64,000 nt of DNA from Candidatus Woesebacteria bacterium GW2011_GWB1_39_12. GTDB taxonomy: Bacteria > Patescibacteriota > Microgenomatia > UBA8517. Positions 29,001 through 60,790 of this stretch are shown here, in pieces. A model generated the notes under the pieces. It searched no databases and was not told the DNA's origin. It saw nothing but the letters and a program-made list of their open reading frames with translations. A program made the position numbers and the translations under genes. The DNA lies in contig LBWB01000004.1 in the NCBI GenBank assembly GCA_000993405.1, forward strand, positions 4,861 through 68,860, written 5' to 3'. Every line of letters begins with the position of its first letter. Position 1 is the stretch's first letter.

Positions 29001-31376
29001 GTTATCTCCCTTTTTATTTTTAACGACCATTTTCAGAAAGTTTACTACCTGAATAACGATTACTATGATAAAGGCAAAGCCAACTGTCAAGACACCAAGG
29101 CGAATAAACTTGCCCCTTACTCCTTGGGAAACATCTTCCTGCTCAAGAAAAACTTGCTTACTTTCTTCAGCCGCAACGACCGTGAAATCAAAAACCGAGG
29201 ACCTGACCGATTTTCCGGATGAAGTTTTTACAGTTGCATAAGCTATATGCTTATCGCCTTCCAGAGGTTGATCAAGTTCATAAACCCAGTCGCCGTTTTC
29301 ATCGGTTTTTGTTGTAACAACAATTGGCTCTGAATAAATATATATATAAACGACTGAATTGGCTGGTCCGATACCGCTAAAGGTAAGCTTTCCACCAACA
29401 TCCTTTCCTTTTATTTCTTTAGCTTCCTCTTTGACTTCAGAAAGATTGATGGTGTTGGGATCTTCTTCTAAGAACGGAACTTCTTCCGGTGGGTGCGGCA
29501 GGAATTTAAGTTGATCGCTATTAAGTTTGGCAAAGCAAGATTCACCTTTAGCTTTCTCGTCATCCGAGGGATTTCCTTTTCCGGAGTTTATTTCATTAAA
29601 CCTTGATTCACCTATATTTTGTGTGAGACAGGTCTTGACTTCGTCCGGTATTTTATACACCCTGCCTTCTTCAAAAGCTTGTGGGTTAATACCAAAACAT
29701 CGGTTTACCTCTTCCCTTGCCTCATAAGGAACATCGGTTTGACCGGATTTAATCCTAGTGTAGTAACTTTTGAGAGTTTGTCGTAGGCAGGTGTCGGTTT
29801 CTTTTGGAAATTCGGCGTCGTTTGTGTAGTAAGTGAGGCTAGTTATCTTTCTTTCACCGTAACACCCTTCATACAAAAGATGTTCCTCATATGTTGGTTG
29901 TCTGACTCCGTAATAAATGTCTTTGTACGCTTTTTCTCCCAAGCTTTTAAGCAAACACCCTTCGTATTCAATGGGTGCTTTGGAGGTTTGACCTGTGGGC
30001 ATCGGACCTCCTTCTTTTGTTGTGGTATAACCCCAACAGGATTTAACTTTGTTTCCCAAATTCATAATTTCATTCTGTTCGTCATTGGTCGTGGGAATAA
30101 AGTAGCGAAGCCTGTCAAATTCGTACTGGTTCAATGCCGATTTAACGCAGCTTATCCTTTCTGATGATTCGTATGCTAGCCTGTCAAAATTCTCTTGCTG
30201 GTAATACGGATAGTAGGAGTTACAGGAACATGAGTAGGAATCCCAATAGGAATTAGTTCCACAACCCGAACTTGGGGCATAGCAGGGAGTGACGTTTGGA
30301 CTGGGTTTACACATACAACTTGCTGAATCCCAGTAATAGTTGTAGCCACAACCAGTGGAAGGTGAATAACAAGTCGTAGTTGTTCCCTGGTATGCTTTGC
30401 AAGAACAGTCGTAGTAATCCCAGTAATAATTATTTCCACAACCATTTGTTGGAGGACTACAAGATGTGGTTGAGGACTTACACGAGCACGAATAGGAATC
30501 CCAATAGTAATTGTAGCCACAGCCATATGACGGAGGATAGCAGGTAGAAGTTCCGCTTGTGTAAGATCTACAAGAACATGCTGAGTAATCCCAGTATTTG
30601 TCTGAGGCACAACCTTCGGTGGGAGGGTAGCAGGTAGTTGTTGTTTGATACGGCTTGCAGGAACAGTAGTACTGATCCCAATAGTAATTCGTGCCGCATC
30701 CGGATGATGGAGGACTGCAAGAAGAAGTTGTTCCTTCAGGACTGCAGGAGCATGAGGAAGAGTTCCAGTAATAGCCTGAGCCGCACCCTTGAGAAGGCGG
30801 ACTACAGCTTCCGAATGACTTGCAAGAACAGGATGCAGTATCCCAGTATTTTTCACTGCCGCAGCCGCTTGATGGTGGGTAGCAGGAAGACGTCGGTGTC
30901 GCATAATATTGGCAAGAACAGGAATTGTAATCCCAATAATAGTTAGCCGGACAGCCCGAGGAAGGAGAATTGCAGGTTGAAGTTGACGACTTACACATAC
31001 ATGCTGCCGAATCCCAGTAGTAATTTGTTCCACAGCCGCTTGATGGTGGGCTGCAAGAGGAAGTGGTTGAAGATTGTTTGCAGGAACAAGTCGATGAATC
31101 CCAGTAGTAGTTGTCCCCACATCCGCCTGATGGATAGGAACATGAGGATTGGCAGGTGCACGTGCTTGAGTTCCAATAATATCCGCTTCCGCAACCGCCG
31201 CTTGGTTCAGTACATCCCTCTGCAATCAATCCCTGGTAACCCAATGTGCTACCTTTTTCCCTACTTTTAAATGAACCGAATATTTGTAAGCCCGTTTGAA
31301 GAATGACTAAAGTCCCCAGAAAAGACGCAAAAAAGGTAAAAAGGAGTTTACCTCTCATTATTTTAAGTGTATACAC
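28941..31376 (-). CDS. Large secreted surface protein with 12 tandem 27-30 aa Cys-rich repeats, Ig-like region and C-terminal TM anchor
   Basis: Signal peptide; repeat unit C-x-PPS-x-GCG-x-NYYWD-xxx-C-x-CK with 4 Cys; C-terminal …GVLTVGFAFIIVIVIQVVNFLKMVVKNKK. Confidence 0.6.
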   Translation of the reverse strand: MYTLKIMRGKLLFTFFASFLGTLVILQTGLQIFGSFKSREKGSTLGYQGLIAEGCTEPSGGCGSGYYWNSSTCTCQSSCSYPSGGCGDNYYWDSSTCSCKQSSTTSSCSPPSSGCGTNYYWDSAACMCKSSTSTCNSPSSGCPANYYWDYNSCSCQYYATPTSSCYPPSSGCGSEKYWDTASCSCKSFGSCSPPSQGCGSGYYWNSSSCSCSPEGTTSSCSPPSSGCGTNYYWDQYYCSCKPYQTTTTCYPPTEGCASDKYWDYSACSCRSYTSGTSTCYPPSYGCGYNYYWDSYSCSCKSSTTSCSPPTNGCGNNYYWDYYDCSCKAYQGTTTTCYSPSTGCGYNYYWDSASCMCKPSPNVTPCYAPSSGCGTNSYWDSYSCSCNSYYPYYQQENFDRLAYESSERISCVKSALNQYEFDRLRYFIPTTNDEQNEIMNLGNKVKSCWGYTTTKEGGPMPTGQTSKAPIEYEGCLLKSLGEKAYKDIYYGVRQPTYEEHLLYEGCYGERKITSLTYYTNDAEFPKETDTCLRQTLKSYYTRIKSGQTDVPYEAREEVNRCFGINPQAFEEGRVYKIPDEVKTCLTQNIGESRFNEINSGKGNPSDDEKAKGESCFAKLNSDQLKFLPHPPEEVPFLEEDPNTINLSEVKEEAKEIKGKDVGGKLTFSGIGPANSVVYIYIYSEPIVVTTKTDENGDWVYELDQPLEGDKHIAYATVKTSSGKSVRSSVFDFTVVAAEESKQVFLEQEDVSQGVRGKFIRLGVLTVGFAFIIVIVIQVVNFLKMVVKNKKGDNLRRTTDGKGDDDAGSGSIN

Positions 31377-31441: not shown

Positions 31442-32971
31442 ATGCTCGCTAAAATTACTTCCGGGGCTACTATCGGATTAAATGCAACTTTGGTGGATGT
31501 CGAGGTGGATATTCCGGATGAAGGTTTACCTTCTTTTACAATAGTCGGACTTCCGGATAAAGCCGTGGAGGAAGCGAAAGAGAGAGTTCGCTCGGCAATT
31601 AAAAATACCGGAGCCGATTTCCCGACAACCAGAATTACGGTAAATCTTGCACCCGCCGATCTTCCAAAAGTCGGCCCCGCATATGACCTGCCAATTGCAT
31701 TAGGAATTTTGATCGCTTCAAGACAAATCGCGCCTGAAATTTCTGATTCGTTTTTCTTCGGAGAATTATCTTTGGACGGAAGTCTTCGGCATACAAACGG
31801 GATTCTGCCCATGGCCTATTTGGCTAGGGAAAAAAGACTAAAGAGAATATTTATTCCCAAAATTAATCAGAAGGAAGCGGCTGTTGTTCCGGGAATAAAG
31901 GTTTATCCCATAGAGAATCTTATCGAACTTTTGAGATTTTTTAGGGGTGTAGTAGAGATTGTTCCTGCTAAAAAAGTTCGTCTGGAAGGTCTTTTAAAAA
32001 CCTCTGAAGCAGAATTTGATTTTTCCGAAATTATCGGTCAGGAACATGCAAAGCGGGCAATGGAGATAGTAGCTGCCGGAAGCCATAATATTTACATGCG
32101 TGGAACACCGGGATCTGGAAAGACTATGTTGGCAAGGGCACTGCCGGGAATACTGCCGAGGTTAACCGCGGATGAGGCTTTAGAGGTGACTAAAATATAC
32201 TCAATAACCGGAAACTTATTTTCCGGTCAGGCAACAGTAAAAACTCGGCCCTTTAGAAGTCCGCACCATACAACTAGCCGGATTGGCCTGATTGGCGGCG
32301 GGAGTAATCCAACGCCGGGCGAAGTCTCGCTTGCCCACAGGGGAGTTTTATTTTTGGATGAGTTCCCCGAATTTCCCAGGCATGTTTTGGAGTCTATTCG
32401 CCAGCCTATGGAGGACGGGGTCGTGACCATATCTCGGGCAAAAGGTTCGGTTACCTATCCTGCACAATTTCTTTTAGTCAGCGCGAGTAATCCCTGTCCA
32501 TGCGGATATTACGGCGACCCGAAAAGAGCCTGTAAATGTCTTCCGGGAGCAATTATGAGATATCAAAAAAGAGTTTCGGGTCCAATTCTTGACAGGATTG
32601 ACATTCACGTTCATTTGCCGGCAGTAGAAACAGAAAAGCTGGTTGGAAATAAGGACAAAGCAGAAAGTTCTAAAAGTATTCAGGCTAGAGTTCAGAAGGC
32701 TAGGGATATGCAAATTAAACGCTTTAAGGGTTCTAAGTTCAAATCGAATAGTGAAATGAGTTCAAAAGCTGTTAAAGAATTCTGCAAGTTATCTCCTGAC
32801 TGCTATGCAATTTTGAGAAGTGCGGTTGCTTCAATGAATTTGACCGCTCGTTCTTACCACAAAGTAATAAAAGTCGCTAGAACAATAGCTGATTTGGAAG
32901 GAGCAAAGGATATAACCACAAATCATTTAGCTGAGGCTTTACAATACCGTCCTACTGAAGATGACTTGTAA
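31442..32971 (+). CDS. comM: ComM/YifB family Mg-chelatase-like AAA+ ATPase
   Basis: N-terminal Lon-like substrate domain, Walker A GTPGSGKT, Walker B VLFLDEF, C-terminal ChlI-type domain. Confidence 0.85.
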   Translation: MLAKITSGATIGLNATLVDVEVDIPDEGLPSFTIVGLPDKAVEEAKERVRSAIKNTGADFPTTRITVNLAPADLPKVGPAYDLPIALGILIASRQIAPEISDSFFFGELSLDGSLRHTNGILPMAYLAREKRLKRIFIPKINQKEAAVVPGIKVYPIENLIELLRFFRGVVEIVPAKKVRLEGLLKTSEAEFDFSEIIGQEHAKRAMEIVAAGSHNIYMRGTPGSGKTMLARALPGILPRLTADEALEVTKIYSITGNLFSGQATVKTRPFRSPHHTTSRIGLIGGGSNPTPGEVSLAHRGVLFLDEFPEFPRHVLESIRQPMEDGVVTISRAKGSVTYPAQFLLVSASNPCPCGYYGDPKRACKCLPGAIMRYQKRVSGPILDRIDIHVHLPAVETEKLVGNKDKAESSKSIQARVQKARDMQIKRFKGSKFKSNSEMSSKAVKEFCKLSPDCYAILRSAVASMNLTARSYHKVIKVARTIADLEGAKDITTNHLAEALQYRPTEDDL

Positions 32972-32981
32972 AGCCGAAGTC

Positions 32982-33038
32982 CTGAGTGGTGAGCGAATTA
33001 CAATCCTGAGCGCAGTCGAAGGAGTCGAACCATCGAAG
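32982..33038 (+). repeat. Left arm of a 57 bp inverted repeat; partner at 42353-42409
   Basis: ctgagtggtgagcgaattacaatcctgagcgcagtcgaaggagtcgaaccatcgaag equals the reverse complement of 42353-42409 at 56 of 57 positions. Confidence 0.9.
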
Positions 33039-33236
33039 GGCCGAGACACTCCAATATCGACTTCAAGAAGAAGACTTTTAATGTGCTGAATTCTTCTTTG
33101 ATTTGTGACACTTCTATCTTCTTTCTGCTGTCCAAACTTTGTTCCACCAGGAGCTAGGTTTTTGAATGTAAATTTCCATAGCTAGTTTTTTAGCTGATTT
33201 ACTAAAAAGTCTTTTCTCTTGTTCTCGTCCTTTTAA

Positions 33237-33710
33237 TCAAGCTGAAGCCTCATTATTACCTACCCATTCATATTCTCGGAGAAGAAGAATTTGATCAAGA
33301 AGATCTGCATCTTTTGCTAAATGAGCTTCCAAAGACTCTCTTTCATCGTACTCCCCCATAATTTTAGTCAACTCATCTCCAAATGGCTTATCTGCTAATT
33401 GATCTTTTTGTATATCTTCATCAAAAACTTTAAGGTATTTTTTATGTATCCAATTCTGATCACCACTTCTGGATTCTGAGAAATCATGGAAAAGACTCAT
33501 AAGAACGACTTTATACGGATCAGCTCTCTCTATTTTTGCTAGATACCACCCTATAATCGAAACTCGGAATGAATGCGAAGCAATGTTATCAGAAAGATCA
33601 TCAGTTAAAAGTATCTGCCTATGACTTCGAATCGTTTTTCTTAGGGATCCAGCTTCGAAAAACATAGCAATTACTCTCTCATGAGTTTTTTTATTATCTT
33701 TATAATTCAT
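33237..33710 (-). CDS. HD-domain hydrolase, YfbR-like 5'-deoxynucleotidase family
   Basis: H…HD…D metal-binding pattern (ASHSFRV…LFHDFSESRSGD). Confidence 0.6.
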   Translation of the reverse strand: MNYKDNKKTHERVIAMFFEAGSLRKTIRSHRQILLTDDLSDNIASHSFRVSIIGWYLAKIERADPYKVVLMSLFHDFSESRSGDQNWIHKKYLKVFDEDIQKDQLADKPFGDELTKIMGEYDERESLEAHLAKDADLLDQILLLREYEWVGNNEASA

Positions 33711-33821
33711 AATTTCAAGGTATTATACAACAGTTCCATCAGGCGCAAAAGTTACCCGCATTTTGGTGTTAAACTCGATTTTTGATATTCAAAATGCTAA
33801 TATCAGCTTCACATTGAACAA

Positions 33822-35408
33822 ATGAGCAATATTCTCTCAACGATATTCTGGTTATTAATTATTGCGATTTGCATACGATCATTGTCTAATTTCTTTAATT
33901 TACTCTCAAATTTGAAGTGGGTTGCAAATAAAAATGTCAGTTATAAGAAAAAAAGCACTCGGGCAACCGATGAAGAGTTTATTATTTGTATTCCAATGCT
34001 ACGGGAGCAGCGTGTAGTTTCTGAAACATTGAAGTACTTTAGTCAGTTGAACTACCCGAAAGATAAATACCATATTGTCGTTGTAACTACAAACAAAGAA
34101 ATCGCAGAAAAGACCCGAATGTCAAGGTTTCTAAGTGAACTAGCAGGAGATGTTTCGCAAGGAAAAGCTCTAAAAACAATTCAAGATAGATACTCAGGTC
34201 TATTTCCATTTGATCAACTGAGAAGGGTATATGAGAAATATCGATTAGAAAGCTATACGGTTGTATTTAAAAAAGTAAAGAGTATATATAAACAACTACC
34301 AACAACATTCAATTTAGCCATTAAGGAGGCGGAAATTATAAATGCTCATTTTAAATCAAAATTAATAACTGTTATGAATTATCCACGCAGCCAAGGTGTG
34401 ATGAGCCATCAAATAAACTATGTTATCAAAAAGCTTGCAAAATATAAGCAGAGTACAAATTCCATTTTTGCGGTGTATAACGCTGACTCTCGTCCCAATC
34501 CGAATACTCTAAGAAATGTCGCTTATGCTTTAAAAGAATTTGAAGAAGAAACCGGCATCAAACCAAATATAGTACAGCAGTCGTCCTTGTTTACATTGAA
34601 TTACAGTAAGTACTCCAAAACTTTTACTGGTTATTCTCTCAAGGCGGCGGCGTTGTTTCAAACAAAGTGGACTTTAGTACGAGAATTGACCCGTTTTCGC
34701 TCACAATCGCGCAGTGTTATTACCTATAAGGATAATTTCATTTCAAAATTATTTAATACTAAAATTTCTCACTGTGTAGGGCATGGATTGTTCGTACGAT
34801 TTGGAATCTTAAAAAACGAATACCTTCCTACTGAAACTATTAACGAGGACTTGCCGTTTGGATTTTACCAATGCTGTAAAGGTGAACCTATTCTACCATT
34901 GCCTATTTTGGAAAATTCTGAAACTCCCGATACATTAAAGGGTCTGATGAATCAAAAACGTTTTTGGTTTACTCCATACTTACAATATCAATATTGTAGA
35001 GATAGGGTATTACAGCTCAAGAAATATCGCTCAAGGTTAGAGGTTGAAATACTTACTATTCAAGCCGAACTTACTGGTTTTATCTGGTTTTTGCAATCGT
35101 TTGTGTTGTTTATGCCCTTAATTATAGGTTTGTATCTACATAGTTTATCTATGATTGCGCTATGGAGTATTGGGCTACTTATTTACTGGTTTGTACCAAT
35201 TGGGTTAATTTACACAAATCTGAACAAATTAGAAGATATCGCTGGAAAATCAGTATCTAAAACCGACTTTAAAGATTATATCCTAACGTCATTTTTTGGA
35301 CTTTATATTTTGTTGACTCACTCCATCGGGCCGATTCTGTGTGTGAGAGATTTTGCTTTAGCAAAATTTATTGATAAGCCGATTACTAAATTAAAAACAG
35401 AAAGATGA
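33822..35408 (+). CDS. Membrane-bound glycosyltransferase family 2-like protein
   Basis: N-terminal TM, GT-A-like core, four C-terminal TM helices. Confidence 0.4.
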   Translation: MSNILSTIFWLLIIAICIRSLSNFFNLLSNLKWVANKNVSYKKKSTRATDEEFIICIPMLREQRVVSETLKYFSQLNYPKDKYHIVVVTTNKEIAEKTRMSRFLSELAGDVSQGKALKTIQDRYSGLFPFDQLRRVYEKYRLESYTVVFKKVKSIYKQLPTTFNLAIKEAEIINAHFKSKLITVMNYPRSQGVMSHQINYVIKKLAKYKQSTNSIFAVYNADSRPNPNTLRNVAYALKEFEEETGIKPNIVQQSSLFTLNYSKYSKTFTGYSLKAAALFQTKWTLVRELTRFRSQSRSVITYKDNFISKLFNTKISHCVGHGLFVRFGILKNEYLPTETINEDLPFGFYQCCKGEPILPLPILENSETPDTLKGLMNQKRFWFTPYLQYQYCRDRVLQLKKYRSRLEVEILTIQAELTGFIWFLQSFVLFMPLIIGLYLHSLSMIALWSIGLLIYWFVPIGLIYTNLNKLEDIAGKSVSKTDFKDYILTSFFGLYILLTHSIGPILCVRDFALAKFIDKPITKLKTER

Positions 35409-36082
35409 CAGAGAGTGAACTTAAAATTGGTGCTGTTGAAGGGAATTCCTTTAGTGGCAAAACTACTTTAGTAAAAGAGCTTGAAGCTGAATATGGGTTA
35501 TCTGTTGTCTGGGAACCAAGCGCTTATCTCAGTAAGTTCCCTAGTTTTCCACCCGAAACATATGCAGAGGCAAAAAAAGCTATCGATATTTTTGTAGATG
35601 TAGAAAAAAGAAGATCCACAGATGCTATCGAACTCGCTCAAAAAAATGGTATTGTTGTTATGGATCGTTCCCTGTGGACATATTCTGCTTTTCAATATGT
35701 TGTGATGAAAAGAATGCCCAATATCCCCAACTCGTATTTATATAGTCTCGATATTCTGCAAAGACACATTGATAATAAAGAAATCGTTGTGCCTGGCGCA
35801 GTTGTAAGCCTTATACCTAAAAACCAAGAAGAATTTGAAAGAAGAGTAAGAGAAAGAGGAAGAGTAGGAATAGGATTCTTAAACGATTGGGGAACAACCG
35901 TCTTGATAGAACAATTGTATGGGATTGTAATCAATTGTGTTTATGCAAAAAACAATGGGAGAAGTGTTATCACTTCAGATAACGTAAAAGAGTTAGCAGC
36001 TGAAACGAGCCAATTTTTACAACAATCAGACTGTTTTGTCGATGCAATTTTAGCCTTTGATCAACTCCGTATCTTAAAATAA
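35405..36082 (+). CDS. Deoxynucleoside kinase family protein (dNK/dCK/dGK-like P-loop kinase)
   Basis: P-loop GNSFSGKTT, DRS motif (VMDRSLWTYSAF), Arg-rich lid FERRVRERGR. Confidence 0.55.
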   Translation: MTESELKIGAVEGNSFSGKTTLVKELEAEYGLSVVWEPSAYLSKFPSFPPETYAEAKKAIDIFVDVEKRRSTDAIELAQKNGIVVMDRSLWTYSAFQYVVMKRMPNIPNSYLYSLDILQRHIDNKEIVVPGAVVSLIPKNQEEFERRVRERGRVGIGFLNDWGTTVLIEQLYGIVINCVYAKNNGRSVITSDNVKELAAETSQFLQQSDCFVDAILAFDQLRILK

Positions 36083-36090
36083 ATACAAGT

Positions 36091-37305
36091 ATGCATATTG
36101 GCTTTTTAACCTCAGAATATCCTTTGAATAACACCAAAACTGGAGGTTTGGGTACATATATCAGAAAAACTGCGCTAGAGCTCAATAAAAGAGGTCAAAA
36201 AGTATCAATATTTTGGGAATCAATACGTAATGCTAAATCGAACGATAGAGGAATCGTTGTTTATGAAATAAAATGTCCCCCACTTTATTATGCTCTCAAT
36301 TCACAGTCTTTGATAAAACAACTTATAAGAGTTAGTTACGTTTTGTATTCTGCTTTCAAAATAAGAAATAAAGTGTTTCAGGTTCACAAAGAAACGCCGT
36401 TAGAGATAATCCAAGCACCTAACCATCTTGCCCCAGGCTATTTTATCAAACAGAATAATAAAATTCCGGTGGTTGCTCGTGTATCAAGTTATGCACCTTT
36501 ATATCATGCTGCTTTTGGTGTCCCTCGCACGTTTGGCGATTATCTGATTGACTATTTAGAACTCAGACAGGTTACGGGTGCTAAAGCAGGCTTTTCTCCT
36601 AGCCATTTTATGCAAAAGGTATATTCACGATACGAAAATTGCAATTTAGATTTTGTGCCTACTGCAGTCGAGGTTAGAAAACCTGAAAAAACAGACAATT
36701 CTGTATTAAAAAAGATACTGAGGCAATTTCCCTCAAAACAATACCTTCTTTACTTTGGAAGCATGAGTCGCATAAAAGGCGTTGATCTTATGGCAGATGT
36801 GATAAATAAGCTCGCACCAAAGTATCCAAGATTGTGTTTTGTTTTTATAGGTGTAGATTATGGTCTACCAAGTGGAGAACCAATTTCTAGCTTCATTTTT
36901 AAAAACTGTGATAAATATAAAGAAAGGATTATATTTCTACCATTCAAACAGCACTGGACTCTTTATCCCGTGATTAAACGTTCGTTAGTAGTGGTAGCTC
37001 CATCGAGAGTTGATAATTATCCTAATGCTTGTATTGAAGCACAATCTTTGGGTATACCAGTGATAGGAACCACAGATTCTAGTATCGATGAGATTATAGT
37101 AGATGGTAAAACGGGATTTATAGCTGAAAATTCATCAGCTATAAGTCTTGTCTCAAAAATAGAAAAATTAATTAATATGAATAAAAAAGAAAGAGTTGAA
37201 ATGAGAAAAAATATAGAGAAAAATATGATTGCCATATTTGCAGAGGATAGAATAAAATTATTAATAAAATATTATGAAAAGGTTATTCAGAAAAACAAAG
37301 AGTGA
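36091..37305 (+). CDS. Glycosyltransferase family 4 (GT-B, glycos_transf_1)
   Basis: C-terminal GT-B half with EAQSLGIPVIGT…DGKTGF signature. Confidence 0.7.
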   Translation: MHIGFLTSEYPLNNTKTGGLGTYIRKTALELNKRGQKVSIFWESIRNAKSNDRGIVVYEIKCPPLYYALNSQSLIKQLIRVSYVLYSAFKIRNKVFQVHKETPLEIIQAPNHLAPGYFIKQNNKIPVVARVSSYAPLYHAAFGVPRTFGDYLIDYLELRQVTGAKAGFSPSHFMQKVYSRYENCNLDFVPTAVEVRKPEKTDNSVLKKILRQFPSKQYLLYFGSMSRIKGVDLMADVINKLAPKYPRLCFVFIGVDYGLPSGEPISSFIFKNCDKYKERIIFLPFKQHWTLYPVIKRSLVVVAPSRVDNYPNACIEAQSLGIPVIGTTDSSIDEIIVDGKTGFIAENSSAISLVSKIEKLINMNKKERVEMRKNIEKNMIAIFAEDRIKLLIKYYEKVIQKNKE

Positions 37306-37951
37306 AACTAAAAAGCTACAGGCAGTATTAATAGATTGGAATGGTACTCTTTCCCCGACCAACTACTGGTCACAGTTAGAAAAGTCTGAAAAACAAAGTG
37401 AGCGCGATCTATTTAAAATTTGGTCGTATTCAATGTTTGTCAAACATAAAGATAAAATTATTCCTTGGATGAAGGGAGAGTATGTAAGCGAGGACCTTCT
37501 TTCTTTGGTTTCAAAAGAAACAAATACAGACTTCGAATTTCTTTTAAAAGAGTTTGTTATAGGCTGTGAGCGCATGGAATATTCTTCTCCAAACATACCT
37601 AAGCTGGTTCAAGACTTGAGAGATAAATCGATTATTGTTGGTATCGCTACAAATAATATGGACTCTTTTACAAGGTGGACCATCCCTTATATGAAACTTG
37701 ATACGCTTTTTAATGAGATACTAAATTCATTTTATCTCAAAGCAATGAAACATGATTTAGACAAAAACGGTCAATCTTTATTCTTTGGAAATTTTTTCAA
37801 TAAATATGATATAGAACCTACAAAATGTATTTTTATCGATGACGGCGAAGACAAGATGGGGGTAATTAACAAACTCGGTATGAATTATAGAAGAGTCAAT
37901 GCTTTCAATACCCTCGAACAAGAACTGCGAAATATTTTAAAGACTCTCTAA
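37274..37951 (+). CDS. HAD-like hydrolase, atypical motif I (DWNGTL)
   Basis: Motif II GIATNN and motif IV IFIDDGEDK present. Confidence 0.4.
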   Translation: MKRLFRKTKSETKKLQAVLIDWNGTLSPTNYWSQLEKSEKQSERDLFKIWSYSMFVKHKDKIIPWMKGEYVSEDLLSLVSKETNTDFEFLLKEFVIGCERMEYSSPNIPKLVQDLRDKSIIVGIATNNMDSFTRWTIPYMKLDTLFNEILNSFYLKAMKHDLDKNGQSLFFGNFFNKYDIEPTKCIFIDDGEDKMGVINKLGMNYRRVNAFNTLEQELRNILKTL

Positions 37952-38235
37952 GTCTTATGTAGTTGAGACCCCTTCCATGATTTGCTTGTGGGCAAAGGTA
38001 AAAACTCCTTCGGTTTTACTTTAAGAGTCCGAGTAATTTTGTTAATAGTTTAAGTTGGAGAATTAAATACGATTATAGTTTGGTTTGAAAAGGAAACTGA
38101 TTAGCACATGTCATTGCGTTTGTTGGAAACCGATAGAAAACCACATTTTTCAGTCTTAAGTCGAAGTGTGACATCTGTAAATTGGTTGGAAACAAAGAAA
38201 AAGAAGAAAATTCAAAAGAAATTTTAACAGATCAT

Positions 38236-38280
38236 AGCAGAGACACTTCAGTATAGACCTTCGAGTGAAGAGGAATTTTA
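38236..38280 (+). repeat. 45 bp direct repeat copy 1, just upstream of the CYTH-like gene
   Basis: agcagagacacttcagtatagaccttcgagtgaagaggaatttta; 40 of 45 identical to 40356-40400. Confidence 0.85.
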
Positions 38281-38321
38281 GTTACTTCGCATAAAATCTA
38301 TTTTTAGCGATATAATCAAAC

Positions 38322-38894
38322 ATGATTGAAATTGAAATAAGAGGAAAGCTGAACAGGAAGGAATTTGGTAAATTAAAGTCCTTTTTGGATAGAAAGGCGA
38401 AACAAAAAGATTGTTATAAAAGAATATCTGTTGATATTTCTCCTGGTTTTGATCCAATAACTAGGACTTGGAAAAATTCAAGCTTCGATTTAAGGCTTAA
38501 AAAATCTGGTACCACCGAAAAGATTAGTTTAAAAGTTGGGAAATTTCACCTTAAAGAGCGAGAAGAAATTGAAGTAAAACTGAAGGAAGGGCAATTTTTA
38601 GATGCATTAAAAATGTTTGAAACGTTAGGTTTTGATAAAGGAATGATTTACTTTTGGGAGAGTTGGGAATATGAATATCAAGGTTTTGAAGTTAAAATCT
38701 CAAAATATACAAATGACTATTATATATGGGAAATTGAATCCGATAATCCTAAAAAAGATCCTCACGATTTAGCAAATACCCTCTCCCTCAAACCATACTC
38801 TGAAGAAGAATATAGGAAAGCTATAGATTGGGAAAATCAAAACATACATAAGCTGTACTCACTCGAATTAGTAAAAGAATTATTAAGGAAATGA
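38322..38894 (+). CDS. CYTH-like (triphosphate tunnel metalloenzyme/CyaB-like) protein
   Basis: N-terminal MIEIEIRGKL ExE motif and alternating charged beta-strand pattern. Confidence 0.4.
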   Translation: MIEIEIRGKLNRKEFGKLKSFLDRKAKQKDCYKRISVDISPGFDPITRTWKNSSFDLRLKKSGTTEKISLKVGKFHLKEREEIEVKLKEGQFLDALKMFETLGFDKGMIYFWESWEYEYQGFEVKISKYTNDYYIWEIESDNPKKDPHDLANTLSLKPYSEEEYRKAIDWENQNIHKLYSLELVKELLRK

Positions 38895-39301
38895 ATAAAC
38901 ATCAAAAAGTAGCAGTAATTGTTTGGACGATAGATCCGGAAGGAATTAAAAGATTTCTTTTAAGACATAATAAACCTTTTAATGGCTACGATGATGAGTG
39001 GACAGTTATTTTTGGAGACATTGAGGTTGGCGAGAGCTTAGAAGATGCTGCAAAAAGAGAGGCTTCCGAAGAGTTTCGAATAAGTAACTTTGAACAAATT
39101 AATGATCTAAATTATACGACTGAGTTTGAAGGAAAACATGGTTTGACTGAAGTCCATTTTGTTGCATTAAAAGTATTAGATATTAATACCCAGATAGTTT
39201 TAAACGAGGAAAGTATCGGTTATGACTGGATGCTTATCGACCAAGTTAAAGGGGTTATGAAAAATGATGATGAAAAACAAGCCTTTGATTTAATAAAATG
39301 A
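38891..39301 (+). CDS. NUDIX hydrolase
   Basis: Nudix box GDIEVGESLEDAAKREASEEFRI. Confidence 0.7.
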   Translation: MNKHQKVAVIVWTIDPEGIKRFLLRHNKPFNGYDDEWTVIFGDIEVGESLEDAAKREASEEFRISNFEQINDLNYTTEFEGKHGLTEVHFVALKVLDINTQIVLNEESIGYDWMLIDQVKGVMKNDDEKQAFDLIK

Positions 39302-39867
39302 AAATTTTATATTTTGCAACATCAAATTCCTGGAAATTTAATCTGATGAAAAGGTTTTTTGATAAAGGAGAAATTGATCTAAAACAGTATGACATTGATA
39401 TGCCGGAATCAAGAAGCGAAGAAGGTGAAGAAATTGCTAAAGAGAAAGCAGAATTTGCATTCTCAAAATTAAGAAAGCCTTTATTTGTGCTAGACGGATC
39501 ATTCCAAATCCGAGCTTTGAATAATTTCCCTAAATCTTATGTTAAGTTTACCGACAGGTACATTGGTGCTGAAGGAATACTAAAGTTAATGGAAGGGAAG
39601 AAAGACAGGTATTGGGAGTTTTTAAATATCCTTTGTTATAAAGATAGCGAATTTGAAAATCTTTTTACCGGCACTCAAAGAGGTCAAATTGTTCAAAAAT
39701 TAACTCACAGTAAGAAGGGGCAAATAAGAGACTTTGATCGAGTATTAGTTCCTGAAGGATATAATAAAACATTTGCAGAGTTTACTAAGAAGGAAATTAA
39801 GGAATATGACGACAAGGTCTGGCCAGAAGTTGTCGTCAAGTTTATAGATTGGTATAAACATAAATGA
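39298..39867 (+). CDS. Ham1/RdgB-like non-canonical purine NTP pyrophosphatase (ITPase family)
   Basis: N-terminal ILYFATSNSWKF (ATxNxxK) and VLDGSFQIRALNNFPKSYVKF (DDSGLxVDALNGxPGxYSAR-like). Confidence 0.5.
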   Translation: MKILYFATSNSWKFNLMKRFFDKGEIDLKQYDIDMPESRSEEGEEIAKEKAEFAFSKLRKPLFVLDGSFQIRALNNFPKSYVKFTDRYIGAEGILKLMEGKKDRYWEFLNILCYKDSEFENLFTGTQRGQIVQKLTHSKKGQIRDFDRVLVPEGYNKTFAEFTKKEIKEYDDKVWPEVVVKFIDWYKHK

Positions 39868-39868
39868 A

Positions 39869-40330
39869 ATGAAGGTGGAAAACAAAATCAATGTTCGGGT
39901 GAGATTGGTGATAATTCATGACAGGAAAGTTCTTGTTCAATACAGACAAAAGGGTGATTTCTATCATTACATTGGTGGACATTTGGAATACGGAGAAACA
40001 GTAAAAGCTGCTTGCACAAGAGAAACTAAAGAAGAGTGTGGAGATCAGGTTAATTTTGATCTCCAGAAAATTCTTTATATCCGCGACTTTATTATTCCTG
40101 ATGAAAATGAACATAGTCTAGAATTATTCATATTAGGAAGTATTGATAAAACCGATAATTTAGAAGGATTAAGAGATCCGGAACACTCAGATGGATCAGT
40201 CTGGTTAACTTGGCTTGATATTGACAACTTGCCGGACAACCTATTACCAAAATCTTTATCTCCAAAATTGTTGAAAGATTTTAACAGTGGATTTCCAAAA
40301 GAAGGAGAATATATTGGAGAAATAGAATAA
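39869..40330 (+). CDS. NUDIX hydrolase
   Basis: Nudix box GGHLEYGETVKAACTRETKEECG. Confidence 0.75.
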   Translation: MKVENKINVRVRLVIIHDRKVLVQYRQKGDFYHYIGGHLEYGETVKAACTRETKEECGDQVNFDLQKILYIRDFIIPDENEHSLELFILGSIDKTDNLEGLRDPEHSDGSVWLTWLDIDNLPDNLLPKSLSPKLLKDFNSGFPKEGEYIGEIE

Positions 40331-40355
40331 ATGAAACTTTAAATTCATATAACAA

Positions 40356-40400
40356 AGCTGAGGCATTTCAATATAGACCTTCAAGTGAAGAGGAATTTTA
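40356..40400 (+). repeat. 45 bp direct repeat copy 2
   Basis: agctgaggcatttcaatatagaccttcaagtgaagaggaatttta. Confidence 0.85.
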
Positions 40401-40424
40401 ATAAACCTGTGATATAGTCAGTGT

Positions 40425-40634
40425 ATGGGCTTCATAGAGAAAATCTGGCGGTTTTTTGCAGAATATTTTGTTTTTGTGGGGGGATTTTTGTTTATTTTTG
40501 CGATTGGTGCTCTTTATGCTTATTTAAGACCTCAGGGAGTTCTTTTTAACGTCATTTTTTTGATAATTACCATAGGTTGGATAGTCTTTCTGATCAGATA
40601 TTTTTGGGATTTGTTGGAAAAGAAAAAGCCTTGA
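40425..40634 (+). CDS. Small 2-TM membrane protein
   Basis: ORF with two hydrophobic helices. Confidence 0.3.
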   Translation: MGFIEKIWRFFAEYFVFVGGFLFIFAIGALYAYLRPQGVLFNVIFLIITIGWIVFLIRYFWDLLEKKKP

Positions 40635-40644
40635 TACATGAAGT

Positions 40645-41076
40645 ATGAGATTAGTAGTTCAAAGAGTGAAGACGGCTTCAGTCAAAGTTAAGAAAAATGT
40701 TGTAGGCAAGATTGACGTAGGGCTATTTGTGCTTGTTGGGGTGGGTAAGGATGATAGCGAGAAAGATGCGCAAATTCTAGCAGAAAAACTTGTAAAACTG
40801 CGTATAATGGCAGACAGTCAAGAAAAGATGAATCTTTCTGTAAAAGACGTTGGGGGGAAGGTGCTGGCTGTTTCCCAGTTTACTTTGTACGCAGATACTA
40901 CCGGTGGTAATAGGCCTTCTTTTATAAAAGCAGCCGAGCCCGATAAAGCGGAGAAAATTTATAACCGCTTTATCGAAAGCTTAAAAGAGTTTGGAGTAGA
41001 CGTGGAAACAGGAAGGTTTGGTGAATATATGGAGATTGAAGCAAGACTTGATGGGCCGGTAACGATAATTATCTGA
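40645..41076 (+). CDS. dtd: D-aminoacyl-tRNA deacylase
   Basis: MRLVVQRV…SQFTLYADT…GNRPSF Dtd signature. Confidence 0.8.
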   Translation: MRLVVQRVKTASVKVKKNVVGKIDVGLFVLVGVGKDDSEKDAQILAEKLVKLRIMADSQEKMNLSVKDVGGKVLAVSQFTLYADTTGGNRPSFIKAAEPDKAEKIYNRFIESLKEFGVDVETGRFGEYMEIEARLDGPVTIII

Positions 41077-41087
41077 GGAAAAATTAT

Positions 41088-41717
41088 ATGGGAATTAGAT
41101 TTTCATTAAAAATCGTTTTGAAAACCTTTCTTACGGTATTTGCTTTTGTTTTGTTTTTTGCATCCCTTTTTGGGGTCTATTTTTTGGGAATGGTTAATGG
41201 TTATAAAATGGCTCAAAGGGAAACGGAGGCAGATATATCAAGTTTCCTGGAAGATTTTATCAAAAGGCAGAGCCTGAATAGAGTTAGTCCGACTCCCACA
41301 GTAGCACCTACTAAAAGTCCTCCGAAGGCGGTGAGTCCACAAGTTTCTTGGGGCGGGCCTGAATTATGGGCGGCCGTGAACAAAAGAAGGACTGAGTTGG
41401 GAGTAAACCCTCTTTCCCAGAAAGATGAACTTTGCACAATTGCCTCGATTCGATTAAATGAACTATTAGATTTAGGAAAATTGGACGGGCATGTTGGGTT
41501 CAGTAATTTGGAGGAAAGGCGAGCCGACTTGAAATGGATTTTTGATAAGTACTCAAACATGGCAGAATTTTTGGCGGTCGGCGGGAAAACTCCCGAAGAA
41601 ACAGTAAGTTTATGGGAGAATACTTTAGGACATAAAAAACTTTTAACCGGTGGAGAATATGTTTGGGGTTGCATTTACGCCCAAAACACTTTTGCGGTTG
41701 CCATTACTGCATTTTAA
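41088..41717 (+). CDS. CAP/SCP/PR-1 family domain protein, membrane anchored
   Basis: N-terminal TM, Pro-rich linker, CAP core (…LNELLDLGKLDGHVGF…YVWGC…). Confidence 0.5.
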   Translation: MGIRFSLKIVLKTFLTVFAFVLFFASLFGVYFLGMVNGYKMAQRETEADISSFLEDFIKRQSLNRVSPTPTVAPTKSPPKAVSPQVSWGGPELWAAVNKRRTELGVNPLSQKDELCTIASIRLNELLDLGKLDGHVGFSNLEERRADLKWIFDKYSNMAEFLAVGGKTPEETVSLWENTLGHKKLLTGGEYVWGCIYAQNTFAVAITAF

Positions 41718-42339
41718 AATCTAGACTTTCTTTTCTTAAAAATTCCTCGAGCCTTTTTTTGGTTGTGTATTGACGGCCGATGGATACAAAGAGTCTGTTA
41801 ATTTCGCTCCAATATTTTTTGGGAAGGATTTTGACAAGTTCTTTTTCCGTTTGTTCGGGAGTTTTTGTTTTTACCCAACCAAGCATGTTAGAAATTCTGT
41901 GAACATGAGTATCAACCGCTATTGCAGGAATTCCAAAAGCACGGTTTAAGACTAAATTTGCAGTTTTTCTTCCAACCCCGGGGAGACTCATTAATTCTTC
42001 ACGGGTTTCCGGAATTTCACCTCTAAATGCCTCTAAAATCCTATATGCAAGCATCTTTAGATGCTTTGCTTTAGTTTTATAAAATCCTACTGGATATATT
42101 AAACCTTGAATTGATCTAATTTCTAATTGACCTAATTGCTCTAAATTTTTTGCTTTAGAAAAAAGTCTTTTGGATGCTTTGAGAGTTACTTCATCTTTAG
42201 TTCTCGAAGATAGAACTGTTGATATGAGGGTTTTATAAGGATCATCTTTGAATAGTTCCAAGGGAACTTGATTGTAATGTTTACGGAAAGTTTTGAAGAC
42301 CTTTTCGAAGTTATAATTTGTCATTTGAAGTATTTTCAA
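41704..42339 (-). CDS. nth: HhH-GPD family DNA glycosylase (endonuclease III-like) lacking the C-terminal Fe-S motif
   Basis: HhH-GPD with LPGVGRKTANLVL and catalytic …AVDTHV…; no CX6CX2CX5C. Confidence 0.65.
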   Translation of the reverse strand: MKILQMTNYNFEKVFKTFRKHYNQVPLELFKDDPYKTLISTVLSSRTKDEVTLKASKRLFSKAKNLEQLGQLEIRSIQGLIYPVGFYKTKAKHLKMLAYRILEAFRGEIPETREELMSLPGVGRKTANLVLNRAFGIPAIAVDTHVHRISNMLGWVKTKTPEQTEKELVKILPKKYWSEINRLFVSIGRQYTTKKRLEEFLRKESLDFKMQ

Positions 42340-42352
42340 ACCAAGAGAAACT

Positions 42353-42409
42353 CTTCGATGGTTCGACTCCTTCGACTGCTCTCAGGATTGTAATTCGCTC
42401 ACCACTCAG
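42353..42409 (-). repeat. Right arm of the 57 bp inverted repeat
   Basis: Reverse complement is gagcactctgagtggtgagcgaattacaatcctgagagcagtcgaaggagtcgaaccatcgaag. Confidence 0.9.
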
Positions 42410-60719: not shown

Positions 60720-60790
60720 TGCCCGGTCGGCTAATGGTAGGCCAGATGGCTCTGAACCATCTAATCCACGTTCGAATCGTGGCTGGGCAG
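60720..60790 (+). tRNA. tRNA-Gln (anticodon CUG); 3' CCA not encoded
   Basis: Manual fold: acceptor tgcccgg/ctgggca, D stem ggc/gcc, anticodon stem gatgg/ccatc with loop ctCTGaa, T arm ccacg-ttcgaat-cgtgg, discriminator g, then caaat. Confidence 0.8.

What the first reader, a model, noticed from the sequence alone, without database searches (positions are those of the whole stretch)
38236..40400. Four consecutive (d)NTP phosphohydrolase genes bracketed by 45 bp direct repeats
Between two 45 bp direct repeats (38236-38280 and 40356-40400, 40 of 45 identical) lie four translationally coupled genes. Each encodes a different nucleoside-triphosphate pyrophosphatase/phosphatase fold: CYTH/triphosphate-tunnel, Nudix, Ham1/ITPase-like and a second Nudix. 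Upstream in the same inverted-repeat-bounded island are a deoxynucleoside-kinase-like P-loop protein and a YfbR-like HD 5'-deoxynucleotidase. This is an unusually dense set of nucleotide-pool-modifying enzymes. It could be a salvage and house-cleaning module for an organism lacking de novo nucleotide synthesis. More speculatively it could be a nucleotide-depletion or signal-nucleotide-degrading module with a defence or counter-defence role. The direct repeats sit 25-40 nt upstream of the next start codon, so they may be shared operator/promoter elements or duplication/insertion scars.
Basis: partly seen in the sequence, partly recalled or inferred. Interest (0 to 1): 0.7.

Follow-up and report, generated by a model that had tools for sequence, protein, structure and literature searches.

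The report
NTP-hydrolase genes between yifB gene-end relics
The four nucleotide-triphosphate hydrolase genes are real, but the "direct repeats" around them are decayed copies of the tail of the neighbouring yifB/comM gene, which marks a spot where foreign DNA has repeatedly inserted in this group of tiny groundwater bacteria.

Summary
The repeats are 40/45 identical. The four overlapping genes encode a CYTH/triphosphate-tunnel fold, a Nudix, a Ham1/ITPase-like protein and a second Nudix. The window is Candidatus Woesebacteria (CPR).

The repeats are not regulatory elements. Each is an in-frame relic of the last ~14 codons plus stop of the yifB/comM-like gene at 31442-32971 (AE[AT][LF]QYRP...*). 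A third relic lies at 33040-81. Relic 1 extends back to 38088.

In relatives, yifB is followed by one to three extra 3' fragments. All start at codon ~384. Cargo between them varies and often includes Nudix genes. Other relatives have an empty site (yifB then TM69/Dtd). 3'-end phylogeny disagrees with 5'-end phylogeny.

So yifB is a recurrent insertion hot spot. Incoming DNA brings a new 3' end and displaces the old one downstream, as with icd/e14 and tandem island arrays. No integrase was found in the islets, so the catalyst is unknown.

A Ham1 gene followed by a Nudix gene recurs in this neighbourhood across the clade. CYTH+Nudix1 is a lineage-specific addition; CYTH stands alone in most relatives.

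The most likely function is nucleotide-pool sanitation. No defence signal was found. This is a new example of a known kind, of moderate interest.

The parts
31442..32971 (+). Intact yifB/comM-like gene (509 aa; ChlI, Mg_chelatase, Mg_chelatase_C). It is the source and target of the repeated 3'-end relics. C-terminus: ...ITTNHLAEALQYRPTEDDL*
32982..33038 (+). Left copy of a 57-nt dispersed repeat, the 'inverted repeat' arm. It lies between the yifB stop and relic 3. It is not a tRNA.
33040..33081 (+). Relic 3: the last 13 codons plus stop of a yifB allele (AETLQYRLQEEDF*). The composite [yifB end - ~65 nt - short relic] also occurs in relatives L036, L038 and L041.
   Evidence: (nhmmer E 7.5e-4)
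33083..38087 (.). Islet A, low GC (0.342). Genes: HD/YfbR-like 33237-33710 (-), GT2-like 33822-35408, P-loop kinase-like 35405-36082, GT4 36091-37305, HAD phosphatase 37274-37951. None of these genes was found at yifB loci of relatives.
38088..38281 (+). Relic 1 (contains repeat copy 1, 38236-38280). It is a decayed yifB 3' fragment. It starts at the same breakpoint as fragments in relatives (AAAGGAAACTGAT|TAGCACATGTCATTGCG = D*HMSLRLLETD). It continues with KLVGNKEKEENSKEI (YifB aa 399-413), then a ~75-codon deletion and frameshifts, then AETLQYRPSSEEEF*.
   Evidence: blastn to relatives' fragments, E down to 6e-13
38311..38316 (+). TATAAT -10-like box 5 nt upstream of the CYTH ATG, a leaderless-type arrangement. 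It lies outside the repeat.
   Evidence: sequence reading; not found by the two-hexamer scan
38322..38894 (+). CYTH/triphosphate-tunnel metalloenzyme-like gene (190 aa). The family is conserved across Woesebacteria and Shapirobacteria. Invariant residues: E3, E5, R7, R58, K60, K67, R80, E82, K125, E137, E139.
38891..39301 (+). Nudix hydrolase 1 (136 aa). Nudix box GDIEVGESLEDAAKREASEEFRI, with R in place of the box's final G.
39298..39867 (+). Ham1/ITPase-like gene (189 aa). Closest solved relative is M. jannaschii Mj0226 (1b78, E 3e-25). K13, E37 and D66 are conserved. The C-terminal SHR motif is absent, as in the whole CPR clade.
39869..40330 (+). Nudix hydrolase 2 (153 aa). Complete Nudix box GHLEYGETVKAACTRETKEECGD. 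Closest solved relatives are NUDT15/MutT-type. It is 88% identical to the L036 copy and 78% to the L039 copy.
40331..40401 (+). Relic 2 (contains repeat copy 2, 40356-40400). ATGAAAC is a remnant of the start of a third Nudix gene that is longer in L039 and L036. It is followed by ...NKAEAFQYRPSSEEEF*, the last codons of yifB.
40425..42339 (.). Conserved ancestral flank: TM69 40425-40634, Dtd 40645-41076, p209 41088-41717, endonuclease III 41704-42339 (-). In relatives it follows yifB or the last yifB fragment.
42353..42409 (-). Right copy of the 57-nt dispersed repeat (98% identical), upstream of nth.

Best explanation
The 45-bp 'direct repeats' are pseudogene relics of the 3' end of the adjacent yifB/comM-like gene.

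In this Woesebacteria clade, a site near codon 384 of yifB is a recurrent recombination and insertion point. Incoming DNA carries its own yifB 3' module (aa ~384-509) followed by cargo genes. After insertion, yifB stays intact with the new 3' end. The old 3' end is pushed downstream, where it decays.

Repeated events leave an array: yifB | islet A (HD, GT2, P-loop, GT4, HAD) | relic 1 | islet B (CYTH, Nudix1, Ham1, Nudix2) | relic 2 | ancestral flank TM69-Dtd-p209-Nth.

The four genes are intact and probably form one leaderless-type transcript. A Ham1 gene followed by a Nudix gene is the recurring core of this neighbourhood. CYTH+Nudix1 were added in this lineage.

Their most likely role is hydrolysis of non-canonical or damaged (d)NTPs and tri/polyphosphates, that is, nucleotide-pool sanitation. 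By general knowledge, CPR bacteria rely on nucleotide salvage.

Shown: relic identity, the shared breakpoint, variable cargo, empty sites, mosaic 3' ends, and the protein folds.
Inferred: that the insertion is integrase-catalysed, co-transcription of the four genes, and the enzymatic substrates.
For: Relic identity:
- All three relics read in frame as AE[AT][LF]QYR + acidic tail + stop, like the YifB C-terminus. That peptide pattern has only 5 six-frame hits in the 64-kb window, and 4 of them are these sites.
- An nhmmer profile built from the two repeats finds relic 3 (E 7.5e-4) and the true gene end (E 0.028).
- Relic 1 also contains YifB aa 399-413 (11/15 identical) and the 'HMSLRLLETD' start. 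By blastn it matches yifB fragments of relatives at E down to 6e-13.

Shared breakpoint:
- Nine long fragments on eight relatives' contigs begin at the same point (RID|xH, codon ~382-385), each with unrelated sequence upstream. A further fragment (L036) starts at codon ~353. Relic 1 has the same boundary as the nine.

Empty and occupied sites:
- L040 has yifB followed by TM69. L048 has yifB followed by Dtd-Nth. L051, L088 and L036 have the last fragment followed (in L036 after Ham1, Nud2 and ~5 kb of other genes) by (TM69)-Dtd-p209-Nth.

Mosaicism:
- N-terminal parts are 78-94% identical among the closer relatives (68-71% to L048). The C-terminal part of the full L042 gene is only 65% identical to L030, while the displaced fragment L042b is 93% identical to it.

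Composition:
- Islet GC is 0.32-0.34, against 0.38 for the window.

Recombinases and precedent:
- Large serine recombinases lie directly against truncated yifB in L033/L032 (codon ~350, in-frame fusion; Pfam) and in L029/L075 (codon ~216).
- yifB is a published integrative-element target (PMC7192596). Phage WO integrates into a Mg-chelatase gene (PMC9203015).

Genes:
- Ham1 is directly followed by a Nudix gene in the window, L036, L035/L027 and L028.
- A yifB fragment lies 28-47 nt upstream of Ham1 in L036, L035 and L056.
Against: - No integrase gene was found inside islets A or B, or in the relatives' islets that were examined. The recombinases seen target other codons of yifB.
- No free element or viral contig carrying a yifB 3' module was found.
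- Relics 1 and 2 are more alike (39-40/45) than either is to the positional counterparts in L036 or L039. This implies gene conversion or a local duplication rather than two fully independent displacements.
- CYTH is a widely conserved gene that stands in unrelated chromosomal contexts in most relatives. It is therefore not typical mobile cargo.
- Enzyme substrates, co-transcription and any link to salvage are untested.
Confidence: 0.72

Rival explanations
1. The repeats are shared cis-regulatory elements (operator, UP or promoter) that co-regulate the four-gene operon and the TM69-Dtd operon. The cluster is a dedicated salvage/house-cleaning regulon.
For: Both copies lie upstream of a -10-like box that is followed 5-6 nt later by an ATG. 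The four genes overlap and share a strand.
Against: The distance from repeat to -10 box differs by 18 nt (30 nt against 12 nt). There is no promoter or terminator consensus in the repeats and no RNA structure. The same sequence is the coding end of yifB and occurs as relics in many relatives, in front of unrelated genes. Relic 3 has no gene downstream on its strand.
Confidence: 0.07
2. The array arose without a site-specific recombinase. DNA taken up from related cells was integrated by homologous recombination anchored in conserved yifB, with an illegitimate join on the other side. Local duplication and gene conversion then produced the near-identical relics 1 and 2. The analogy is displaced 'orphan' 3' ends downstream of rhs/cdiA genes.
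For: No integrase is present in any islet. Relics 1 and 2 are 89% identical to each other, more than to their positional counterparts. The 3' modules are mosaic. YifB/ComM is itself a transformation protein (general knowledge).
Against: Nine fragments share one sharp breakpoint with a semi-conserved AAAGGWAYTGAT junction. Homology-anchored illegitimate joins would be expected to scatter.
Confidence: 0.17
3. The cluster is a defence or counter-defence module that depletes nucleotides or degrades signalling nucleotides, carried on a mobile island.
For: It sits in a variable, low-GC insertion hot spot. Nudix genes recur as cargo at this hot spot in the clade: 14 Nudix-box ORFs on 10 Woesebacteria-clade yifB loci (about 113 kb by hand sum of their lengths), and none on any of the more distant yifB loci scanned. 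A HAM1-like protein (KomB) exists in a solved defence system.
Against: PADLOC gives only weak generic Nudix hits. Ham1 matches archaeal housekeeping ITPase at 3e-25 but KomB only at 5e-6. There is no effector, sensor or cyclase partner. No viral-contig relatives were found. CYTH and Ham1 families are broadly conserved in the clade, like housekeeping genes.
Confidence: 0.04

Closest known systems
Prophage e14 / phage 21 integration into icd (displaced icd 3' pseudogene), and tandem arrays of integrative genetic elements at one target gene
   Same: An intact conserved host gene is followed, after inserted DNA, by direct-repeat copies of its own 3' end. The incoming DNA supplies a replacement 3' end, so the gene stays functional. 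Successive events stack islets (tandem arrays, function-preserving integration and icd-targeting elements are mentioned in PMC7192596; the details of e14/phage 21 are from general knowledge).
   Different: Here no integrase is left in the islets, and the islets are tiny (2-5 kb) metabolic cassettes. The replaced module is long (~125 codons). The host is a CPR bacterium.
Large-serine-recombinase elements that target Mg-chelatase-like/yifB genes (phage WO sr1WO; yifB as a 'regulated gene integrity' target)
   Same: The target gene family is the same. LSR genes abut truncated yifB in relatives L033/L032, L029 and L075 (PMC9203015, PMC7192596).
   Different: Those insertions split the gene at codons ~216 or ~350. 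The array in this window uses codon ~384, and yifB remains intact.
House-cleaning NTP pyrophosphatases: ITPase/RdgB/Mj0226, MutT/NUDT15-type Nudix enzymes, and triphosphate tunnel metalloenzymes (SaTTM, ygiF, CyaB)
   Same: The folds and catalytic cores match.
   Different: The CPR Ham1 clade lacks the SHR motif. The CYTH protein has ExExR rather than ExExK and fails the Pfam and NCBIfam cut-offs. Substrates are unknown. Four such genes in a row is unusual, but the arrangement is lineage-specific.
Orphan C-terminal modules downstream of rhs/cdiA genes
   Same: An array of displaced 3' gene ends, each followed by cargo, downstream of a full-length gene, with mosaic 3' ends.
   Different: yifB is not a toxin gene and the cargo is not immunity genes. 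The resemblance comes from general knowledge and was not tested here.

Membership tests
CYTH / triphosphate tunnel metalloenzyme | Eight-stranded beta-barrel tunnel fold | tested here: met
   AF2 pLDDT 94.2, pTM 0.86. Foldseek PDB top hits are all TTMs: 7nsd E 5.6e-8 with TM 0.68/0.73, then 2dc4, 1yem, 5a60, 2fjt. A profile search hits 1yem and 2dc4 at E 1e-3.
CYTH / triphosphate tunnel metalloenzyme | N-terminal ExExK motif plus basic and acidic tunnel residues | tested here: inconclusive
   E3-x-E5-x-R7 (R in place of K) is invariant in 42 homologues, along with R58, K60, K67, R80, E82, K125, E137 and E139. This is compatible with the motif but not canonical.
CYTH / triphosphate tunnel metalloenzyme | Curated profile score (Pfam CYTH; NCBIfam cyaB) | tested here: not met
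   No Pfam hit at E<=0.1. TIGR00318 scores 27 bits against a cut-off of 57.95.
Nudix hydrolase | Pfam PF00293 above the gathering score, and the Nudix box GX5EX7REUXEEXGU | tested here: met
   50.7 and 44.4 bits against 21.1. The box is complete in Nudix2. In Nudix1 the last G is R.
Ham1/ITPase (RdgB/Mj0226) | Pfam PF01725 above the gathering score, and a conserved catalytic Lys/Glu/Asp core | tested here: met
   75 bits against 22.5. 1b78 at E 3e-25. K13, E37 and D66 are invariant.
Ham1/ITPase (RdgB/Mj0226) | C-terminal S-H-R specificity motif | tested here: not met
   Absent from the window protein and the whole CPR clade. Present in the archaeal relatives P0166 and P0169-P0171. NCBIfam equivalog scores are all below their cut-offs.
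Tandem integrative-island array with target-gene 3'-end duplication | Direct-repeat copies of the target gene's 3' end downstream of an intact copy | tested here: met
   Relics at 33040-81, 38088-38281 and 40331-40401, all on the + strand downstream of yifB.
Tandem integrative-island array with target-gene 3'-end duplication | The same breakpoint in independent genomes, and an empty site in relatives | tested here: met
   The breakpoint at codon ~382-385 is shared by nine long fragments on eight relatives' contigs and by relic 1. Empty sites are seen in L040 and L048.
Tandem integrative-island array with target-gene 3'-end duplication | An integrase (int-attP module) in or beside the island | tested here: not met
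   None in the window's islets. None in the relatives' islets that were scanned. The LSRs seen insert at other yifB codons.
Known anti-phage defence systems (PADLOC) | A significant match to a defence-system protein model, together with partner genes | tested here: not met
   Only PDC-S07 (a Nudix candidate) at 1.8e-7 and 2.7e-5. There are no partner genes.
Sigma-70 promoter / intrinsic terminator / structured RNA (for the repeats) | Consensus hexamers, a stem-loop with a T-run, or a stable fold | tested here: not met
   No site lies inside the repeats. Fold z-scores are +1.3 to +1.5. There is no Rfam match.

The most novel reading that the evidence does not exclude
The yifB 3' region of Woesebacteria acts as a gene-capture platform. 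Small integrase-less cassettes, each tied to a replaceable yifB 3' module, are exchanged between lineages at codon ~384 by a recombination system not yet identified. The cargo is selectively enriched for Nudix and other nucleotide-pool enzymes. One possible reason is a functional coupling to ComM/YifB-dependent DNA uptake and nucleotide scavenging. Another is counter-defence.
Probability: 0.15. Interest if true: 0.65.

Novelty: new member of a known kind. Interest (0 to 1): 0.38.

Why it matters
The result turns an apparent regulatory repeat into a datable scar. It shows that this nucleotide-hydrolase cluster was assembled recently at an insertion hot spot and is not an ancient operon.

It documents in CPR bacteria the classical pattern of target-gene 3'-end replacement and tandem islet accretion. 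I did not find the pattern described for CPR in the papers searched. It also points to yifB/comM as a landmark for finding horizontally acquired genes in these reduced genomes.

The recurrent Nudix cargo and the recurring Ham1-then-Nudix arrangement give concrete candidates for studying how salvage-dependent bacteria keep their nucleotide pools clean.

Tried and rejected
- tRNA genes as the inverted-repeat arms: rejected. ARAGORN and Rfam find only one tRNA, at 60720.
- Repeat as a structured RNA, terminator or promoter: rejected.
- More copies of the exact 29-nt core in the window: none. A profile search was needed to find relic 3.
- Conserved four-gene synteny: rejected. CYTH stands without the other three genes in L011-L015. 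The 189-aa and Nudix genes beside CYTH in L014 are not homologues of the window's Ham1 or Nudix genes.
- Strain variants lacking the island among same-species contigs: none found.
- GTDB genome scan with Ham1: only two distant archaeal hits.
- IMG/VR scans with the yifB C-terminal part and with Ham1: nothing relevant.
- Integrase inside the islets: not found. A 301-aa tyrosine recombinase and an LSR lie about 8-9 kb downstream of yifB in L030. The locus ends before any displaced fragment could be seen.
- Shared internal-deletion junction between relics 1 and 2: the similarity upstream of the 45-nt core is only ~54% in A-rich sequence. I judged it too weak to use.
- A palindromic core site around the breakpoint: it cannot be separated from coding conservation, so I make no claim.
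Full report
**Source and observation**

The CYTH-like protein is 100% identical to a protein of Candidatus Woesebacteria bacterium GW2011_GWB1_39_12, a member of Microgenomates in the CPR, from the Rifle aquifer. Same-species contigs from several Rifle samples carry the same gene order.

The reported repeats are real. Positions 38236-38280 and 40356-40400 are 40/45 identical. The similarity extends to 84 nt at 73%. The 29-nt core occurs exactly twice, against zero expected by chance.

Between the repeats lie four + strand genes: 38322-38894, 38891-39301, 39298-39867 and 39869-40330. Two junctions are ATGA overlaps and one has a 1-nt gap.

**The four proteins**

- The two Nudix calls pass Pfam at 50.7 and 44.4 bits, against a cut-off of 21.1. 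Both have recognisable Nudix boxes, complete in Nudix2 and with G replaced by R at the last box glycine in Nudix1.
- By sequence, Nudix1 is weakly MTH1/NudI-like and Nudix2 is NUDT15/MutT-like.
- The Ham1-like protein passes Pfam at 75 bits against 22.5. Its closest solved relative is the archaeal XTP/ITP pyrophosphatase Mj0226 (1b78, E 3e-25). The defence protein KomB matches only at 5e-6.
- An alignment of 26 Ham1 relatives shows K13, E37 and D66 invariant. The whole CPR clade lacks the C-terminal SHR motif that the archaeal relatives keep.
- The first protein has no Pfam hit and only a sub-threshold NCBIfam cyaB hit. It belongs to a family of more than 200 proteins in Woesebacteria and Shapirobacteria. 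An AlphaFold2 model built on 42 homologues has pLDDT 94.2. Its best PDB matches are all triphosphate tunnel metalloenzymes: SaTTM 7nsd at E 5.6e-8, then 2dc4, 1yem, ygiF and class IV adenylate cyclase. Its N-terminal motif is ExExR rather than ExExK, and it is invariant.

Upstream, the HD/YfbR-like gene exists but lies on the minus strand (33237-33710). The dNK-like call is weak. A HAD phosphatase at 37274-37951 was missed.

**What the repeats are**

A profile built from the two repeats found a third copy at 33039-33082 (E 7.5e-4). More weakly, it found the 3' end of the yifB/comM-like gene at 31442-32971 (E 0.028).

Read in frame, the copies are:
- AETLQYRPSSEEEF* (relic 1)
- AEAFQYRPSSEEEF* (relic 2)
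- AETLQYRLQEEDF* (relic 3)
- AEALQYRPTEDDL* (the C-terminus of YifB itself)

Relic 1 extends further upstream. Positions 38179-38223 encode KLVGNKEKEENSKEI, matching YifB aa 399-413 at 11/15. Positions 38100-38136 encode D*HMSLRLLETD. By blastn, these stretches match yifB fragments of relatives at E down to 6e-13. Relic 1 is therefore a ~190-nt decayed yifB 3' fragment with frameshifts and a ~75-codon deletion.

The repeats contain no promoter or terminator consensus. They have no RNA structure, with z-scores of +1.3 to +1.5, and no Rfam match. Their spacing to the -10-like boxes that precede the next ATG differs, 30 nt in one case and 12 nt in the other.

**Relatives**

I scanned JGI metagenomes with YifB aa 386-509. 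This returned 64 loci, which I compared with all window proteins by tblastn.

Many Woesebacteria contigs carry one to three stand-alone yifB 3' fragments, in several cases downstream of a full yifB on the same contig: L033, L034, L042, L043/44, L051, L036, L039, L041, L088 and L035. Others carry shorter relics (L037, L038; further short relics).

All but one of the long fragments begin at the same point, codon ~382-385 (RID|xH); the L036 fragment starts at codon ~353. They are preceded by a semi-conserved AAAGGWAYTGAT and then by unrelated sequence. Relic 1 has this same boundary.

Some relatives have an empty site. In L040, yifB is followed by TM69. In L048, yifB is followed by Dtd-Nth. In L051 and L088, the last fragment is followed by (TM69)-Dtd-p209-Nth, which is the flank that follows relic 2 in the window; in L036 that flank follows ~5 kb after the Ham1-Nud2 pair.

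Cargo between fragments varies. It includes Nudix, histidine phosphatase, APH kinases, YcaO/nitroreductase, radical SAM enzymes, methyltransferases, a deaminase and Bro-N.

Full-length YifB proteins are mosaic:
- N-terminal parts are 78-94% identical among the closer relatives (68-71% to L048).
- The C-terminal part of the full L042 gene is only 65% identical to that of L030.
- The displaced fragment L042b is 93% identical to L030.

The islets have lower GC than the window, 0.32-0.34 against 0.38.

Together this is the signature of repeated insertion at one site in yifB. Incoming DNA provides a replacement 3' module and the resident one is displaced. The pattern resembles the displaced icd 3' end left by e14 and phage 21 (general knowledge). 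It also resembles tandem integrative-element arrays (PMC7192596).

yifB is a published integrative-element target. A Mg-chelatase gene is the target of phage WO serine recombinases (PMC9203015). In the relatives studied here, large serine recombinases sit directly against truncated yifB at codon ~350 (L033/L032, an in-frame fusion) and at codon ~216 (L029, L075).

No integrase was found in the islets that use codon ~384, and no free element was found. The catalyst is unknown. A homology-anchored, transformation-driven route remains a serious rival.

**History of the four-gene cluster**

The CYTH gene is not linked to Ham1 or to homologues of Nud1 or Nud2 in six other relatives:
- L011, L012, L013, L014 and L015 show no such linkage. 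Unrelated Nudix genes lie within ~2 kb of CYTH in L011 and L014.
- In L016, the closest relative at 75% identity, CYTH lies directly upstream of Dtd-p209.

By contrast, Ham1 is directly followed by a Nudix gene in L036 (Nudix2, 88% identical), L035/L027 and L028. In L036, L035 and L056 a yifB fragment ends 28-47 nt upstream of Ham1. CYTH+Nudix1 (38282-39297) therefore look like an insertion between relic 1 and Ham1 in this lineage.

After Nudix2, L039 and L036 carry a truncated third Nudix gene fused to a yifB relic. The window keeps only its ATGAAAC start before relic 2.

Relics 1 and 2 are more similar to each other than to those positional counterparts. This points to gene conversion or local duplication. 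I cannot separate the two.

A Nudix-box pattern finds only the two cluster genes in the 64-kb window. It finds 14 ORFs on 10 Woesebacteria-clade yifB loci (about 113 kb by hand sum of their lengths) and none on any of the more distant yifB loci scanned. Nudix genes are therefore recurrent residents of this hot spot. The reason is unknown.

**Function**

PADLOC and PHROGs give only generic hits. The enzyme types match house-cleaning NTP pyrophosphatases. CPR bacteria generally depend on nucleotide salvage (general knowledge). I therefore favour nucleotide-pool sanitation as the function. It is an inference.

The 'inverted-repeat-bounded island' is not a unit. The arms are two copies of a 57-nt dispersed repeat (98% identical). 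One copy is embedded in a [yifB end - spacer - short relic] composite whose layout also occurs in L036, L038 and L041, although the 57-nt repeat sequence itself was matched, in part, only in L038. The other copy lies upstream of nth. The conserved flank genes lie between the two arms.

**Verdict**

This is a new example of a known kind of genome architecture, of moderate interest.

Noticed in passing
window 28941-31376 (-): An 811-aa ORF with many tandem Cys-rich repeats (…CSPPSSGCGTNYYWDS…) and a C-terminal TM segment. It is probably a repetitive surface protein. Gene callers split it in same-species contigs.
   Followed up: no
window 32982-33038 (+) and 42353-42409 (-): A 57-nt repeat in inverted orientation, 98% identical and 9.3 kb apart. 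L038 carries the two ends of the element without its middle. It could be a small mobile or recombinogenic element.
   Followed up: partly
L033:8225-10378 (also L032): A single 717-aa ORF: a large serine recombinase (Resolvase + Recombinase + Zn_ribbon_recom) fused in frame to YifB aa ~350-509. The recombinase gene reads straight into the target gene at the junction.
   Followed up: partly
L029:11030-13238: yifB is truncated at codon 217 by an element carrying a large serine recombinase, Prim-Pol/DnaB_C and PBECR2. A ParE/Phd pair and a Ham1 homologue lie just upstream of yifB.
   Followed up: partly
window 38311-38322, 40411-40425; L035, L036, L039, L056: Genes that follow a yifB end have a -10-like box only 5-9 nt before the ATG and no obvious Shine-Dalgarno sequence. 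This suggests leaderless transcripts.
   Followed up: no
alignment A2 (Ham1 homologues): The whole CPR Ham1 clade replaces the ITPase C-terminal SHR motif with Y(D/N)xxxW, and FG(F/Y)DP with RDFDR. This may mean an altered substrate specificity.
   Followed up: partly
window 33822-35408; L001/L002: The GT2-like gene of islet A varies between strains: 528 aa, 498 aa, or split into 216 + 297 aa. This may be strain-level decay or a start-codon or frameshift polymorphism.
   Followed up: no
window 37990-38030: A hairpin (GTAAAAACTCCTTCGGTTTTAC) followed by TTTAA lies downstream of the HAD gene. It may be a weak terminator that the scan missed because of its low GC.
   Followed up: no
Woesebacteria-clade yifB loci L030-L052: Nudix-box ORFs cluster around yifB and its fragments in this clade, and are absent from yifB loci of more distant bacteria.
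   Followed up: partly
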